A stretch of 64,000 nt of DNA from Dictyostelium discoideum (GCA_000004695.1 CM000151.3:4576001-4640000); one strand, 5' to 3'. Numbered from the stretch's first letter, positions 31,655 to 42,186 are shown. Notes: generated from the sequence alone by a model not told the origin. Program-made: numbers and translations.

Positions 31655-34600
31655 TTAGCTTCTACTTTGTAATGAATGAATATTATTTTTAAACTTCATT
31701 TCCTTCTTTCTCATTACAAAATGATAGGTAACTGAGGATATTACTACTGCAGCAAATGCGACACTACCCACTACAATACCAGCAATTGCACCACCACTTA
31801 ATCCACTGGATTTTTGAGAACAAATTGAATTTGGTGATGAAGATGAACTTGATGAATGATCTAATAATACTGAGAAATCAGGATCTACTATAACTTCAGA
31901 TTTATACTGTGGTATTATAATACCAATATATGAAGATGAGAATGATTCAGAATTTGATTGAGTTTGATTATTTTCAATAACTCTATTATCGATTGGGGTA
32001 ATTAGTCCATCTGCAATACCTCTTTTTAAGAATCTTGCATACATTGAATGATCTCCAATTTGAATTTTTAAATAATCTTCGTTTGTATTATTTCCAAATT
32101 GTTGAGATGAACAAATATCGTCACTGCTAGATGATTCAAATGTTGCTGACATTAATAATTCTAATTTACTTAATCGATTTCTAAATGGATATGAATTGAT
32201 TGAAATTGTATATTTTGAAGTTGATGGGTTCATTTGTAAATTATTACCAGCGAATGATATATTTGTAGCCTTATCAAACCATTGAATAGTTACATTTGTT
32301 TGTGATATTGTAATGTCATCTCTTGTAATATTAGTTATATACAATGATGTATTATTAGTTAAATCACTGTAAATCCATTTTTCAAAGTAATAGGTATTGA
32401 TTACATTATATTCATAATCGAGTTCTCTTAAAGCTACTAATGATATTAAAGATCTAAATGTAATATCAAGATTCGATGAGGTGGTAGTTGTTCCGTTTGG
32501 TGTTGAAATTTCGGTTGATGGATCGGTTGTATTAATTGATGGTTGTGGTACAATAATAACTTTGGATGTACAGTCAATACCAACCCATGGTGTGAAACAA
32601 ACACAACCCGATGTACTAGTATCACAATAACCTTGATTTGAACCACCACATTCTGGTTTTCCTGGACATTGTGGTCTTTTAGTTGGTGTCGGTGTTGGTG
32701 TTGGTGTTGGTGTTTCAGATGAAGATTCAGATGGTGTTTGAGATGGTGTTTGAGATGGTGTTTCAGTTGGTGTTTCAGTTGGTGTTTCGGTTGGTGTTTG
32801 AGTTGGTGTTTCGGTTGGTGTTTGGGTTGGTGTTTCAGTTGGAGTTTGAGTTGGTGTTTCAGTTGGAGTTTGAGTTGGTGTTTCAGTTGGAGTTTGAGTT
32901 GGTGTTTGAGTTGGTGTTTGAGTTGGTGTTTGAGTTGGTGTTTCAGTTGGTGTTTCAGTTGGTGTTGGTGTTTGAGTTGGGGTTGGTGGATCTGGAATAA
33001 ATAATAATACTTTTTGATATGGATAAATAAAATATTCATTTGAAGATATTGATTTATCATTTTCTAATATAATACTAAAGTTACTACCTTGATCCATTTC
33101 AGAGATACCGCCTAATAAAATAGCAGCACCCCCAACAGTTTTTTTAACTTGTAATGGTTTAGTAGTTGATTTATAATTGAATGTTGCACCAGTAACTGAT
33201 TTAAATCCTTTACCTGTTAACCATAAATCACCACCTAATGTAGAAATTCTATCAGAACCTGTAATAACTGGAACATCGATTGTATATGTTGTATTTATTA
33301 AATATGGGAAACCTAATTGTTTAAAATCATTAGAGCTATAACCACTATAATATCCACCATTATTTACTAAACCATAAACTGATAATAAAATTCCAAATGG
33401 GTAACCATATGCTACTGGTAATGAAATTGAACATTGATATGATTTTGAATTTGAATTGATTATTGTTTCAGATGTAATTTGACATTGAATTGTATTGAAA
33501 TCAGTTGAAGTTAAATAAATTACTGGGTAACTATTATTTTTAACACCAGATGCTAAATTTTCAACCTCTAAATTAAATGAAACAACTCTTTCACTTAAAC
33601 CTACATCAACTACAGTTTTATCACTAGAAAATTTTTTAATTACAACTGGTGTTGGATCACTTACTTCATTTGGACAAGTAACTGATATTTTATTGATTGA
33701 TGGATCATTAAAATAGTACATAAATGGATTATAAAGAGAGTTTAAAATAAATTTATAATCACTAAATAATGAAAATGTTGAATTATTATTTTCAGTATCA
33801 AATAGTAATACATCAGAAATAATATAGTCTTGAGAAATACAAGGAGTTGATAAATTAATACCAACTGTATATACTTGTTCAAATACATCAGTTGTTGGAT
33901 ATAATGTAAAATTATAATTTGAACCATCAATTGCACCTTTAACTACAATATAACCACTTTTAAAACCATTAATTGGATCACTAATTGTTAATTTCCAACC
34001 AATTTCAGTATTAGTTTGAATTGTAACTGGTGATGAAGATGGATACTTTTGAATTCTTTTAAATATTGGACCCATTAAATCAGCATCTTTATTAAACAAT
34101 TTGAATATTAAATTAGTAATTAATTTTTTCAATAAAAATAAATAAATAAAAATTTTAACTTACTTTCTGAAATTACATTAAATGAAGCATTACTACCTAA
34201 TGCACTATTCAATACCCATTGTTTTCTATTAAAAAAGAGGGCATAAGACATTGGACCTTGTCTCGAATTTCTTGGCAAATAAAATTCAACTTGAAACATT
34301 TTAATTGTATCATTCCATTGTGCTGGCCAAGCTTTATCTAGTAATCCTTGAGGATAGATTGGATCATCATTCAAATATTCTTTTATCCATTGTTGATGAT
34401 GAACCAATAGAGATATTGGTGAATTGATATCTAAATTTGACATATTAAAATATAAAATATTACCAGCAACAACATTTGTAACATCCATTGTTTTATAAAA
34501 AATTGAAGCATTTTGAACATTATAAAAATTGAAACCTTTAAAAGCAATTAAAAAAAAGTTAGTTTATATGTAATAAAAAACAATAGTTCATTATAATATT

Positions 34601-36088
34601 ATATAGCTTACTTTCATCATAATAAGGTGGTGAAATGTAAGAATTATCAACTGCATAAAAAAAATAATCTGAAGTTGAATATTGAAGTCCATTCGCTTTA
34701 AATGTTGAAGTAATTGTCAAAGTATCAACTACCATTTCATAAATATTTTCCCCTGCATATGATTCAAGTGAAAAAATTGTATCACCAACAATTAATTTAA
34801 AAATTGGATATTGGTAACTAATATCAAATCTTAATAAATAAAATCTACCAAATAAATGAATGAATTCATTTTTATTTAATTTTGAAAATAAATTATCTAA
34901 AAGAAATAGTTTAGTGTTTTATTATAATTAGTATTGTATTGGTAAAATAAGTTTTAAAAGTTTGTAGGTTAATTAATATTTACTGGTTGGTTTTGGTGAA
35001 ACTAATTTTTTAGAGTATCCTTTGGTTGTAGTAGGAAAGTCAGAAGTAACATATAGATCACCCATTATTGGATCATTGTTGGCAATTAAAAATGACATTG
35101 AATATGTAAATCCATTTAAATTATTACCACTTTTAAAACCAAATGGGAATCTATAAGATTTTAAAGTTTGATATCTAAAATAAATTGGTTCATATTTATA
35201 AGGCCCACTTGAAAATCCGGTATTTACAATATTATCAATTTGTTCAACATTACCAAAAGTGGGTATTGTTAATGTAGATGGTAAACCTTTATAAACAATT
35301 TTTAAATAATTAATAACTTGTAAATAATATTAATAATTAATATATAATTAATATAATAAAAATTACCTGTGATATTTAATTTTACTTGATCTCTTGTCGT
35401 TGCTGTTTGGCCACTTTGTGCTGAAAAAGTATGATCTCTGAGTCCAATATAAGTAATGTAATCATATAATGCTAAATAAGTTGTGAGTGGACCATTACTA
35501 TAAATCGCTCTGTACGTTAAAAAAAGGTTATTATATTTAACAAAGGGTGTTAATTTTGTTGAATTTGTTGTAAATGTAAAAAGTGGAGCATATAAATCAC
35601 CAATAACTTGAATGTTTTGTAAATTTTCTGGGTATCTAACTACCAAAGTTGAATCATAATCTATTATTTGAAATTATAAAAGTAATTATAAGTTTTAATA
35701 AAAAAAAAAATAAAAAAACTAATATTAAATAAATAAACCTTACTATTTTTTGAAAAATAATTATCTTGGTTTGGTAAAGTATTTTGAAATTGAATTTTCA
35801 TGGATACACTCCCTGGTGAATTTAAGTTTGAAACTGCACCAAAAACTCCATGATTACTCATATATATACTTCTGCAACTTGTGCCAGATGCAGATGGCAA
35901 ATCACTAGAGAAACGGTTCTCCACACCATTTAGTTTATATTGAAGTACTAGATAACCAAAAACAGTTGCGTCCATTGGAGAAATATCAATTGCATAATTT
36001 GATGAAGTAATTACTTTTTTTAAAAGAAGTAAAAAATGAAATTAATAATTATAAAATTTGAAAATAAATAAATAAATAAATAAATCAA

Positions 36089-36139
<51 letters not shown>

Positions 36140-40948: not shown

Positions 40949-41719
40949 GAATAGTAAAAATAATAAATAATAATAGTTACCTGTGATATTATATTGTACT
41001 GAATCCCTTAAAGTACAAGATGCTTGATCTTGAGCGCAAAAAGTATAGTTAGTTAATACGCCATCATATGGTCTGTAATCATATAAACCTAAATAGGTTG
41101 TTGATAAATTATTGCCACCAATTATTCTAAAAATTGCAAATTGATTTGTAAAAAAATTGACCCAGGGCGACATATATGTTGAATTTGATGTAAATATAAA
41201 AAGAGGAGCATATAAATCACCCAAAACTTGAATATTTTGAGTTAATACCAATCTTGAAACACTCACTTTATCATAATCTAAAAAAAATTAATATTTAAAA
41301 TCGAAATTATGTATACATAATGTTCAAAAGTTAGAGTTTAAAAATAAATGAAAAAATAATAAAGAATAAAAAAAAAAAAACATTATTAAATAATAATTAT
41401 CTTACTTGTAAGAGAGTAATAATTAGGTGAAGTTACAGTTATAGTATCTTCAATTTCGGCTGATATAAATCCAGGACCATTTAATAACATAGGAGATAGA
41501 AATAATGCTTTACTCTGATAAATTGCAGCCATTCCAGTTCCTTTGCTATTTGGAATTTTACTATATGACTTTCCTTCAACTCCATTTAAATAAAATTGGA
41601 GGAGTATAAAACCAAATGGTGAGGCATTCATTCCTGAGAAAACAACTCCATTATTTGCAGTGGTAAGTTCTTTTTAAAAAAAAAAAAAAAAATTAAAAAA
41701 ATAAAATTAAAATTAAATT

Positions 41720-41774
<55 letters not shown>

Positions 41775-42186
41775 TAATAATAATAATAATATTCATACTA
41801 TAGCATAAAAAGGGAATTGTAAGGGTGGAAGATTCGCTATTATCATTTTTAGCAGTTATTAATATACTATAAGATCCTTGTTGAATACTACTGGTACCTA
41901 TGGAGTAGGGTACAGAAATTGATGTATCATTTTTCTTAGCCATATAAGTAATAGCACTAACAGTATAACCTGGAGCTGTGACTGTTAATTTTGAATTTGG
42001 ATTTGCAGTGTCAGTAACTAGAACAGTAAAATATGTACTACACCTTTGATTTGTAGAACCACCAGTCATCCATATTGAATATTGAGTTTTATCAATTGTA
42101 ATATCATTAGTTATTAAAGATCCATTTAAAAAATTTTTCTCTAATAAAAAAATTAGTAAAAATACAAAGATTATTAATTTTTTCAT
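37288..42186 (-). CDS. Type I transmembrane glycoprotein, paralogue B. Last exon 39977..37288. Upstream exons about 40350-40040, 40815-40490, 41277-40995, 41654-41398 and 42186-42112 (ATG at 42186).
   Basis: Signal peptide MKKLIIFVFLLIFLLEKNFLNG. The same EGF-like module and TM (GGEIAGIVIGSVTFAAVVIFSL) as paralogue A. Intron GTATGT after ...FELG, acceptor tatag before GFNMYDIRNAS. Confidence 0.75.

What the first reader, a model, noticed from the sequence alone, without database searches (positions are those of the whole stretch)
31655..42186. Tandem pair of 4.9-kb paralogous membrane-glycoprotein genes with differential Thr/Pro-repeat expansion and a relic third C-terminus between them
Two head-to-tail genes share exon structure (at least 7 exons each, unusual for this genome), signal peptides, an EGF-like Cys module, and a C-terminal TM anchor.

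Paralogue A has a clean, expanded (PTQT/PTET)n array of about 300 nt. Paralogue B has a short degenerate linker (PTVTPDPSTPIPTPSQTPTETPTQTPSETPIETPSETP..).

Between them, at 36960-37078, is a disrupted copy of the last 110 nt or so of the coding region (TM helix plus tail). This is a footprint of an additional or unequal duplication event.

A G-rich 14-mer aaattgggttgggt sits about 300 bp upstream of paralogue A (36841-36854). The identical 14-mer recurs upstream of the unrelated PP2C-like gene (47284-47297). A related aaattgggtgatttgg lies upstream of paralogue B (about 42341).
Basis: partly seen in the sequence, partly recalled or inferred. Interest (0 to 1): 0.5.

Follow-up and report, generated by a model that had tools for sequence, protein, structure and literature searches.

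The report
Tandem ComC-family surface glycoprotein genes
Two neighbouring Dictyostelium discoideum genes are old duplicates encoding large cell-surface glycoproteins of a slime-mould-specific family; repeated gene conversion keeps their 3' halves nearly identical while their outer ends have diverged, which is real but ordinary genome evolution.

Summary
Both genes lie head-to-tail on the minus strand: A at 31655-36543 (7 exons, about 1445 aa) and B at 37288-42186 (6 exons, 1414 aa, not 7 or more). Each encodes a signal peptide, a chain of beta-sandwich domains, a Thr/Pro linker, one EGF-like module, a supersandwich domain, a TM helix and a short tail.

Pfam places both in the dictyostelid family defined by DUF7035, DUF7034, DUF7949 and ComC_SSD. 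They are not Tgr or Sib proteins: there is no IPT/TIG or VWA hit.

Synonymous divergence is strongly mosaic. dS is about 1.0 in exons 1-2 and 0.5-0.7 in exons 3-6. It falls to 0.13-0.19 across DUF7035 to the Ig-like domain, and to 0.012 over about 870 nt of EGF plus supersandwich. It rises again to 0.2 in the TM and tail. This indicates an old duplication followed by repeated gene conversion in the long last exon. A tandem pair in another dictyostelid shows the same pattern.

B has precisely lost an intron that A shares with the closest relative found.

The relic at 36870-37087 is real. It is B-type and extends into B's 3'UTR. The 14-mer does recur exactly, but evidence for a function is weak.

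Verdict: uncharacterised members of a known family, of low novelty.

The parts
31655..36543 (-). Paralogue A coding region, start to stop, 7 exons: 36543-36162 | 36013-35744 | 35660-35367 | 35286-34984 | 34896-34612 | 34535-34164 | 34086-31655. About 1445 aa.
   Evidence: The splice model was built by hand from ORF segments and GT..AG junctions. All introns are phase 1, 76-145 nt long and 6-17% GC. Pfam hits: DUF7035, DUF7034, DUF7949 and ComC_SSD. The intron-1 donor is non-consensus (GTGGGT or GTTTGT), so the end of exon 1 is uncertain by a few bases.
37288..42186 (-). Paralogue B coding region, 6 exons: 42186-41799 | 41669-41406 | 41277-40981 | 40805-40488 | 40352-40065 | 39977-37288. 1414 aa.
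   Evidence: Searches give the model and one search gives the same four Pfam families. A public D. discoideum assembly (GCA_054883475.1) calls a 1414-aa gene at this position.
34087..34163 (-). A's intron 6 (77 nt, GTAAGT...AG, phase 1), which is absent from B.
   Evidence: An intron at the same site and phase is present in the closest relative found, at L006 10136-10221. It is absent from B, D. purpureum L007, L001 and both L002 genes.
32681..33004 (-). A's Thr/Pro linker (about 108 aa). Its core is a regular (Q/E)TPT 12-nt array with CAAACACCAACT / GAAACACCAACT units.
   Evidence: TRF reports 32672-32988, period 12, 26.4 copies. One search lists the units.
38317..38517 (-). B's Thr/Pro linker (67 aa), shorter and degenerate (PTVT, PDPS, TPIP, TPSQ and similar units).
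   Evidence: TRF reports 38308-38491, period 12, 15 copies, 77% matches. One search lists the units.
31817..32689 (-). Near-identical tract in A, covering the EGF-like module and the supersandwich domain. The partner tract in B is 37453-38325. There are 7 differences in about 873 nt, and A 31898-32343 is 446 nt of perfect identity.
   Evidence: The genomic alignment and list of differences are. dS is 0.012 over 250 codons of the supersandwich domain.
37453..38325 (-). Near-identical tract in B, partner of A 31817-32689.
36870..37087 (-). Relic: a decayed copy of B's last about 150 coding nt (TM helix and tail) plus part of B's 3'UTR. It lies about 200 nt downstream of B's stop and about 330 nt upstream of A's ATG.
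   Evidence: Alignment. Identity to B is 79% (coding) and 72% (UTR); identity to A is 73% and 49%. tblastn gives E = 4e-6. The translation reads GEIAGIVVDSVTIDAVLITFHFVKR...VK**, with charged residues in the former TM helix, internal deletions and no upstream ORF.
36840..36853 (+). G-rich 14-mer AAATTGGGTTGGGT, which reads ACCCAACCCAATTT on the gene strand. It lies 297-310 nt upstream of A's ATG and 17 nt from the end of the relic.
47284..47297 (+). Second exact copy of the 14-mer, about 225 nt upstream of the start of the 1410-aa ORF listed at 42827-47059 (minus strand).
   Evidence: The flanking sequence shares AAAAAAA(C)ACCCAACCCAATTTT.
36739..36777 (-). Two 18-nt direct repeats, ACAACCA(T/A)CC(C/T)GTTTATA, in A's promoter. 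They may be a regulatory element.
   Evidence: Not tested further.

Best explanation
A and B are head-to-tail duplicates in Dictyostelium discoideum.

What they encode. Both are type I membrane glycoproteins of the dictyostelid-specific family that shares its membrane-proximal module with ComC. The layout is:
- a signal peptide;
- a variable N-terminal region encoded by about 100-aa exons with phase-1 boundaries;
- four modelled beta-sandwich domains, including DUF7035 and DUF7034;
- a Thr/Pro mucin-like stalk;
- one EGF-like module (DUF7949);
- a galactose-mutarotase-like supersandwich domain (ComC_SSD);
- one TM helix and a tail of about 22 aa.

How they evolved. The duplication is old: dS is about 1 in exons 1-2, and A and B are hardly closer to each other there than to a relative in another species. 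Since then the long, intron-free last exon has been repeatedly homogenised by gene conversion or unequal exchange. The most recent tract covers about 870 nt of the EGF-like module and supersandwich domain. The intron-interrupted 5' half and the TM and tail have diverged. The Thr/Pro array has expanded in A by slippage or unequal exchange. B has precisely lost one intron. A fragment of about 220 nt from B's 3' end was left as a decaying relic.

Likely function (inferred, not shown). The proteins are cell-surface receptor or adhesion-type molecules. A diversified distal ectodomain sits on an O-glycosylated stalk, above a conserved membrane-proximal module.
For: Shown:
- Paralogy and gene models.
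- Pfam: DUF7035 (136 bits), DUF7034 (105-112 bits), DUF7949 (51 bits) and ComC_SSD (54-55 bits, cut-off 24) in both proteins.
- Family size: 330 representative proteins at E <= 1e-3, mostly 1300-1450 aa with the match at the same position, and the same Pfam order in relatives.
- Structure, B pre-linker 486 aa: pLDDT 88.5, all-beta, four sandwiches. The best PDB matches are chains of Ig-like or IPT domains such as PirB/LILRB3, plexin A1 and SiiE.
- Mosaic dS: 1.00 and 1.11 (E1, E2); 0.50-0.69 (E3-E6); 0.13-0.19 (DUF7035 to the Ig-like domain); 0.012 (supersandwich); 0.205 (TM and tail).
- Heterogeneity of synonymous differences between adjacent blocks: Fisher p = 3e-12, 7e-6 and 1e-3.
- A run of 446 nt of perfect identity.
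- An independent tandem pair in another dictyostelid (L002): 83-85% nt identity in the 5' part and 98.7% over the last 2.7 kb.
- Intron 6 is shared by A and L006 at an identical site and phase, and is absent from B.
- In the exon-6 region, aa identity is 59% for A-B, 51% for A-L006 and 55% for B-L006.
- Organism: window 39276-61388 is 99.7% identical to a D. discoideum assembly.
Against: - No expression, glycosylation or localisation data were available, so function is inferred from architecture only.
- With only two sequences, the direction and number of conversion events cannot be resolved. A staggered partial re-duplication would give a similar picture.
- A's intron-1 donor is non-consensus, so A's full functionality is not certain.
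- DUF7743, present in several relatives, was not detected in A or B at E <= 1.
- The TM and tail show dN/dS of 1.37, but this is not significantly different from 1 (p = 0.64).
Confidence: 0.8

Rival explanations
1. The identity gradient reflects only different strengths of purifying selection along the protein, with no gene conversion.
For: The C-terminal EGF, supersandwich and TM module is also the best-conserved part across the family (consensus; 39-58% identity between distant members).
Against: Synonymous divergence changes about 80-fold, from dS 1.0 to 0.012, with only 2 synonymous differences in 163 synonymous sites. There are 446 consecutive identical nucleotides. Selection on the protein does not remove synonymous differences. 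The same step is seen in an independent pair.
Confidence: 0.03
2. The relic is the remnant of a third, middle gene copy (B - M - A). Most of that copy was deleted, leaving only its TM, tail and 3'UTR.
For: The relic sits exactly between the two genes, in the same orientation. Tandem arrays of 2-4 units exist in this family, seen as fused gene models of 2000-3900 aa with 2-4 matched stretches.
Against: The relic is B-type, including the 3'UTR, and starts only about 200 nt after B's stop. A local tandem duplication of about 360 bp at B's 3' end explains this equally well. No other fragment of a third copy was found anywhere in the window.
Confidence: 0.4
3. The G-rich 14-mer (ACCCAACCCAATTT on the gene strand) is a shared cis-regulatory element that co-regulates A and the upstream 1410-aa gene. 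It could be, for example, a G-box or C-rich element of the kind bound by GBF (from my own knowledge of Dictyostelium promoters).
For: There are two exact copies and none in 100 shuffles. Both lie in the same orientation, 225-310 nt upstream of minus-strand starts, and the shared flank extends the match to about 17-18 nt. After excluding coding repeats and paralogues, it is the only repeated non-coding 14-mer with at least 6 G+C; about one such pair is expected by chance in the whole window.
Against: The motif was chosen after it had been seen. The 12-nt core also occurs in frame inside a PKS-like coding sequence at 16030, so chance recurrence happens. Paralogue B has only a 9-mer, which occurs at chance frequency. 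The 11-nt core ACCCAACCCAA is absent from the loci fetched around four other family members.
Confidence: 0.25
4. One of the two genes, most likely A, is a decaying pseudogene.
For: A's intron-1 donor is non-consensus (GTGGGT or GTTTGT). The closest relative in another species carries an in-frame stop in the equivalent of exon 6.
Against: Both spliced ORFs are intact over 1414-1445 codons, and all other junctions are GT..AG. dN/dS is below 1 in every segment except the short tail. Continuing conversion keeps the 3' half intact.
Confidence: 0.1

Closest known systems
[quoted passage not shown] 2003, as cited in PMC8865844 and listed in PMC4931340 Table 3)
   Same: A and B share the membrane-proximal module that defines Pfam ComC_SSD, preceded by an EGF-like module and followed by a single TM helix. 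Like ComC, the family has limited phylogenetic distribution: PMC4931340 Table 3 lists comC among developmentally essential genes with limited conservation.
   Different: A and B have a single EGF-like module and a long N-terminal chain of beta-sandwich domains (DUF7035, DUF7034 and unassigned exons). No direct alignment to ComC itself was made here, because ComC was not retrieved by the searches. No phenotype is known for A or B.
Tgr proteins (TgrB1/TgrC1, IPT/TIG-domain adhesion and allorecognition proteins of Dictyostelium)
   Same: Both are type I membrane glycoproteins with chains of Ig-like beta-sandwich domains. Both belong to large, lineage-specific, duplicated families (PMC4931340 Table 4 lists IPT/TIG and EGF-like families as cell-adhesion families). 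A and B also show a diverged distal part and a conserved proximal part.
   Different: There is no Pfam IPT/TIG hit in A or B, even when the candidate segment is scanned alone at E <= 10. The domain families are different. No polymorphism data are available.
GLMP (glycosylated lysosomal membrane protein, partner of the MFSD1 transporter; PDB 8r8q chain B)
   Different: Sequence identity is only 11% and the rmsd over the whole chain is large. GLMP has no EGF module, stalk or N-terminal domain chain. This is a fold resemblance only, and no homology or shared function is claimed.
Thr/Pro O-glycosylated spacers of Dictyostelium surface glycoproteins such as PsA, whose PTVT-type repeats vary in number between strains (my own knowledge, not checked here)
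   Same: Both have short PT(x)T tandem units between the ectodomain and the membrane-proximal part. B's linker even contains PTVTP. Copy number differs between the paralogues.
   Different: The linkers here are much longer, at 67-108 aa. Glycosylation and variation between strains were not testable.

Membership tests
Dictyostelid ComC_SSD / DUF7035 / DUF7034 / DUF7949 membrane-protein family (Pfam-defined) | ComC supersandwich domain (PF22933) above the gathering score | tested here: met
Dictyostelid ComC_SSD / DUF7035 / DUF7034 / DUF7949 membrane-protein family (Pfam-defined) | EGF-like six-Cys module (PF25820, DUF7949) immediately N-terminal to the supersandwich domain | tested here: met
   50.7 and 50.9 bits against a cut-off of 27. 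The Cys spacing C-x5-C-x7-C-x6-C-x-C-x8-C can be read directly from the sequence. The generic EGF_2 model reaches only E = 0.6.
Dictyostelid ComC_SSD / DUF7035 / DUF7034 / DUF7949 membrane-protein family (Pfam-defined) | DUF7035 followed by DUF7034 | tested here: met
   136 bits for DUF7035 and 105-112 bits for DUF7034 against cut-offs of 27, both near full length. The same order is seen in six relatives.
Dictyostelid ComC_SSD / DUF7035 / DUF7034 / DUF7949 membrane-protein family (Pfam-defined) | DUF7743 in the N-terminal half (present in many but not all relatives) | tested here: not met
   Not reported for A or B at E <= 1. It was found in P0002, P0005, P0010 and P0011 but not in P0006 or P0008, so it is not universal in the family.
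Dictyostelid ComC_SSD / DUF7035 / DUF7034 / DUF7949 membrane-protein family (Pfam-defined) | Type I topology: N-terminal signal peptide and a single C-terminal TM helix | tested here: met
   The N-termini MKKLFFNFIFLFLLIFSIDFLSG and MKKLIIFVFLLIFLLEKNFLNG are hydrophobic. AF2 predicts a helix at 296-341 of the C-terminal model, covering the hydrophobic 22-mer. No dedicated signal-peptide predictor was available.
Tgr family (IPT/TIG adhesion proteins) | IPT/TIG domains detectable by Pfam TIG models | tested here: not met
   No TIG-family hit at E <= 1 on the full proteins, nor at E <= 10 on the isolated candidate segment window:33005-33322:-. The only support is structural: plexin IPT chains appear among many generic Ig-like matches.
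Sib family (integrin-beta-like adhesion proteins) | VWA domain with repeated Ig-like or bacterial-type repeats, and a conserved cytosolic tail motif | tested here: not met
   No VWA or related hit was found. The tails, HFVMRKKEMKFKNNIHSLQSRS and HFVKRNQENKFNRSITNKLEKVK, contain no NPxY.
Mucin-like O-glycosylated Thr/Pro stalk | Tandem Pro/Thr-rich units that are O-glycosylated | not testable with these tools
   The repeat is present. Glycosylation needs biochemistry.

The most novel reading that the evidence does not exclude
The pair may work as a 'variable head on a constant stalk' recognition system. Gene conversion would keep the membrane-proximal EGF, supersandwich and TM module uniform, perhaps because it docks to a common partner in cis, as GLMP does with MFSD1. 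The N-terminal domains and cytoplasmic tails would be free to diversify or be selected to do so, giving paralogue-specific ligand recognition and signalling. This would be a second recognition family in social amoebae, structurally unrelated to Tgr. The same mosaic in an independent tandem pair would then reflect a family-wide mode of evolution rather than an accident of exon length.
Probability: 0.1. Interest if true: 0.55.

Novelty: new member of a known kind. Interest (0 to 1): 0.2.

Why it matters
The practical value is modest. It gives a clean annotation of two uncharacterised members of a large family of dictyostelid surface proteins. That family has 330 representatives at 50% clustering. 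The only member with a functional study that I could trace (ComC) acts in intercellular communication.

The locus is a compact textbook example of several processes:
- concerted evolution confined to a long exon;
- a precise intron loss in one duplicate;
- repeat-length divergence in a mucin-like stalk;
- a decaying duplication by-product.

It would matter more if the diverged N-terminal domains turned out to mediate cell-cell recognition.

Tried and rejected
- Word-indexed protein searches. The first was swamped by the Thr/Pro repeat. The other two showed that this database holds very few dictyostelid proteins: only 'hypothetical protein' entries were returned, and neither ComC nor A or B themselves.
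The public annotation of A could therefore not be compared. For B, only the annotated length (1414 aa) could be compared.
- Strain comparison of repeat length. The only second D. discoideum assembly reached (L003) starts at window 39276, 3' of neither repeat. It is nearly identical to the window, with 0 substitutions in B's 5' half, so it carries no information on natural variation.
- Internal repeats among exons. No significant similarity was found between exons or domains, so there is no evidence that the ectodomain arose by recent internal duplication.
- Intron gain in A. I considered this first, because B, L001 and both L002 genes lack the intron. I rejected it when L006 showed the same intron.
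- A simple 357-nt tandem duplication as the origin of the relic. The spacer sequences show no similarity above shuffles, so this is neither supported nor excluded.
- tRNA and Rfam scans of the window found nothing.
- PDB sequence search found only low-complexity matches to the linker.
- The afdb50 fold library was unavailable.
- Synteny of L002, L006 and L007 with the window: none.

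
Full report
**Organism and setting.** The window has about 22% G+C. Positions 39276-61388 are 99.70% identical to contig JBTAPE010000033.1 of a Dictyostelium discoideum assembly, GCA_054883475.1. 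That assembly calls a 1414-aa gene where I place paralogue B. Both genes of the finding are on the minus strand.

**Gene models.** I assembled both models from ORF segments and GT..AG junctions.
- A: 36543-36162 | 36013-35744 | 35660-35367 | 35286-34984 | 34896-34612 | 34535-34164 | 34086-31655. This gives 7 exons and about 1445 aa.
- B: 42186-41799 | 41669-41406 | 41277-40981 | 40805-40488 | 40352-40065 | 39977-37288. This gives 6 exons and 1414 aa.
- All introns are phase 1, 76-175 nt long and 2-17% G+C.
- Exons 2-5 each encode 88-106 aa.
- A's intron-1 donor is non-consensus (GTGGGT or GTTTGT). This is the only weak point in either model.
- A's intron 6 (34163-34087) is missing from B. At that point B reads straight through: A has NVISE|N|ADLMGP and B has NVISEKMDLLGP.

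**Is the paralogy real?** Yes. blastn aligns the two loci collinearly. Identity is 94.5% and 88.9% over the last exon and falls to 74.5%, 70.9% and 68.6% towards the 5' end of the genes. A tblastn search with B against the whole window finds only A, B and the relic.

**Family.** Pfam gives the same four families in both proteins, all well above their cut-offs: DUF7035, DUF7034, DUF7949 (a 35-residue EGF-like module) and ComC_SSD.
- There is no IPT/TIG, VWA or other adhesion-domain hit. This holds even when the segment that looked IPT-like is scanned alone at E <= 10.
- An exhaustive HMMER search with B's 486 residues before the linker finds 330 cluster representatives at E <= 1e-3. Most are 1300-1450 aa, with the match at the same relative position.
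- Six relatives that I scanned show the order (DUF7743) - DUF7035 - DUF7034 - DUF7949 - ComC_SSD.
- Named sources are D. discoideum, Polysphondylium violaceum and D. purpureum.
- Several representatives of 2000-3900 aa contain 2-4 copies of the domain set. These are tandem genes fused by annotation, so tandem arrays are common in the family.
- The only family name with a functional study behind it is ComC, described as 'has EGF domains' and important for intercellular communication (PMC4931340 Table 3; PMC8865844, citing Kibler et al. 2003).

**Structure.** I predicted two parts of B with AlphaFold2, each on a 51-sequence alignment.
- The 486 residues before the linker give mean pLDDT 88.5 and four consecutive beta-sandwich domains. 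The site of intron 6 falls between the first two.
- Foldseek against the PDB returns only generic chains of Ig-like, IPT or FN3 domains, such as PirB/LILRB3, plexin A1, mastigoneme and SiiE. TM-scores are low, as expected for flexible multi-domain rods.
- The C-terminal 342 residues give mean pLDDT 89.8: a small EGF-like unit, a large supersandwich and a long helix at 296-341 that includes the TM segment.
- No relative has a solved structure detectable by sequence.

**Mosaic divergence.** This is the main new point. On a codon alignment of A and B, Nei-Gojobori estimates by segment are:

| Segment | dS | dN/dS |
|---|---|---|
| E1, E2 | 1.00, 1.11 | about 0.6-0.7 |
| E3-E6 | 0.50-0.69 | 0.38-0.76 |
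| DUF7035, DUF7034, Ig-like domain | 0.19, 0.14, 0.13 | 0.34-0.75 |
| EGF-like module | 0.08 | 0.13 |
| Supersandwich | 0.012 (2 synonymous differences in 163 sites) | 0.41 |
| TM and tail | 0.205 | 1.37, not significantly different from 1 (p = 0.64) |

- Synonymous differences are heterogeneous between adjacent blocks, with Fisher p = 3e-12, 7e-6 and 1e-3.
- At the nucleotide level, A 32689-31817 and B 38325-37453 differ at 7 positions in about 873 nt and include 446 nt of perfect identity. Identity then drops to about 72% over the last 160 coding nt.
- Between DUF7035 and the linker, differences fall in short islands separated by perfect blocks.
- Selection on the protein cannot erase synonymous differences. 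The pattern therefore means an old duplication followed by repeated gene conversion or unequal exchange, most recently over the EGF-like module and supersandwich domain.
- The homogenised part lies within the long, uninterrupted last exon. The diverged part is cut into exons of about 300 nt by introns whose lengths differ between the copies.
- I infer, but have not shown, that interrupted homology limits conversion in the 5' half.
- An independent tandem pair in another dictyostelid (L002, GCA_036169595.1) shows the same step: 83-85% nt identity in the 5' part against 98.7% over the last 2.7 kb.

**Age of the duplication and the intron.** In the exon-6 region, aa identity is 59% for A-B, 51% for A-L006 and 55% for B-L006. 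L006 is the closest relative found and comes from assembly GCA_054859205.1.
- The duplication is therefore roughly as old as the split from that relative.
- L006 carries an intron at exactly A's intron-6 site and phase: GAA A|GTAAGT...AG|AT.
- B, the D. purpureum gene (L007), L001 and both L002 genes lack it.
- B-L006 identity is not lower than A-L006 identity. The simplest reading is therefore that the common ancestor of A, B and L006 had the intron and B lost it precisely.
- I initially favoured intron gain in A and dropped that idea on this evidence.
- Identity around the site is 70-87% on both sides, and perfect blocks begin about 30 codons downstream. Conversion has therefore not crossed the site since the loss.

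**Thr/Pro linkers.** A's linker is about 108 aa and B's is 67 aa.
- A's linker is dominated by nearly identical 12-nt units (CAAACACCAACT / GAAACACCAACT, that is QTPT / ETPT), partly in a 24-nt alternation.
- B's linker is degenerate.
- This fits recent expansion in A by slippage or unequal exchange.
- O-glycosylation is expected by analogy with other Dictyostelium Thr/Pro spacers. That expectation rests on my own knowledge and was not tested.
- Each protein also has 25-30 N-glycosylation sequons.

**Relic.** Positions 36870-37087 (minus strand) align with B 37224-37447, which covers the TM helix, tail, stop codon and about 70-90 nt of 3'UTR.
- Identity to B is 79% (coding) and 72% (UTR). Identity to A is 73% and 49%, the latter being background for this composition.
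- The translation reads GEIAGIVVDSVTIDAVLITFHFVKRYKGNNYDRSVFQVK**. It keeps B-specific residues (GGE, HFVKR, the VK-stop ending). It also has Asp residues inside the former TM helix, internal deletions and nothing upstream.
- It is a real, decaying, B-type 3' fragment.
- Two origins fit: a local duplication of about 360 bp at B's 3' end, or the remnant of a deleted middle copy. The AT-rich spacers show no residual similarity, so I cannot decide between them.
- One coincidence is unexplained. The relic's 5' breakpoint (equivalent to B 37447) lies within a few bases of the 3' boundary of the near-identical A/B tract (B 37452).

**The 14-mer.** AAATTGGGTTGGGT occurs exactly at 36840-36853 and 47284-47297. 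Both copies have the same orientation and lie 225-310 nt upstream of minus-strand starts, and none was found in 100 shuffles. The flanks extend the match to about 17-18 nt.
- Against a function: the choice was post hoc.
- The 12-nt core also occurs at 16030 inside a PKS-like coding sequence, where it encodes IIGLGF.
- B's promoter shares only ACCCAATTT, which occurs at chance frequency.
- The 11-nt core ACCCAACCCAA is absent from the loci fetched around four other family members.
- I rate a regulatory role at about 25%.

**Verdict.** The genes belong to a Pfam-defined, dictyostelid-specific family related to ComC, not to Tgr or Sib. The evolutionary features are conversion mosaic, intron loss, repeat expansion and a relic. 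They are well supported but are ordinary processes. Function remains inferred from architecture. Interest is low.

Noticed in passing
window 47794-49121: 37 of the 42 substitutions between the window and the second D. discoideum assembly (L003) cluster in this 1.3-kb AT-rich intergenic stretch, including runs of T-to-A differences at 48621-48646. The other 20 kb are almost identical. This could be a hypervariable region or an assembly problem in one of the records.
   Followed up: no
window 55683-57533 and 61239-62645 (minus strand): A second paralogous pair in the window: two FNIP-repeat genes (Pfam FNIP, 150-153 bits each). The duplicated segments are about 92% identical over about 2.1 kb.
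   Followed up: partly
window 36162-36159 (A intron 1 donor): The only phase-compatible donors for A's first intron are GTGGGT or GTTTGT. Both are unusual compared with the GTAAGT/GTATGT donors of all other introns in the two genes. Splicing efficiency or the exact end of exon 1 is therefore uncertain.
   Followed up: partly
window 36739-36777 (minus strand): A's promoter has two 18-nt direct repeats, ACAACCA(T/A)CC(C/T)GTTTATA, 21 nt apart, inside a relatively G+C-rich island (GCGGGTTTCCTGAAG ... GTCCCACCTTCCTC). No counterpart exists upstream of B.
   Followed up: partly
window about 15975-16060 (+ strand): An ORF start reads MQMEFDNKSKSKYQNDVAIIGLGFRLTG, which looks like the N-terminus of a polyketide synthase ketosynthase domain (from my own knowledge). 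It contains the 12-mer ATTGGGTTGGGT in frame.
   Followed up: no
It is very rich in poly-N/Q/T tracts. The motifs ADGSGHG and SDGVSDN do resemble PP2C-type signatures by eye.
   Followed up: partly
L006 9779-10135 (GCA_054859205.1): The closest relative of A and B in another dictyostelid has an in-frame stop in the exon equivalent to A's exon 6 (NLDI*TP). Its N-terminal exons are annotated as separate small genes. It may be a pseudogene or a sequencing or annotation error.
   Followed up: no
L002 8001-18690 (GCA_036169595.1) and representatives P0024, P0044, P0050, P0051, P0053, P0062, P0071, P0083, P0098: Public annotations fuse tandem family members into single gene models of 2000-3900 aa with 2-4 copies of the domain set. 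P0005 was confirmed as two complete genes, with the TM helix of the first running into the N-terminus of the second.
   Followed up: partly
window 37447-37452 versus relic start at 37087: The 5' breakpoint of the relic's homology to B and the 3' end of the near-identical A/B tract fall within about 5 nt of each other in B coordinates. Both lie just downstream of the poly-Ser coding run at about 37462-37490. This may be coincidence or a recombination-prone site.
   Followed up: partly
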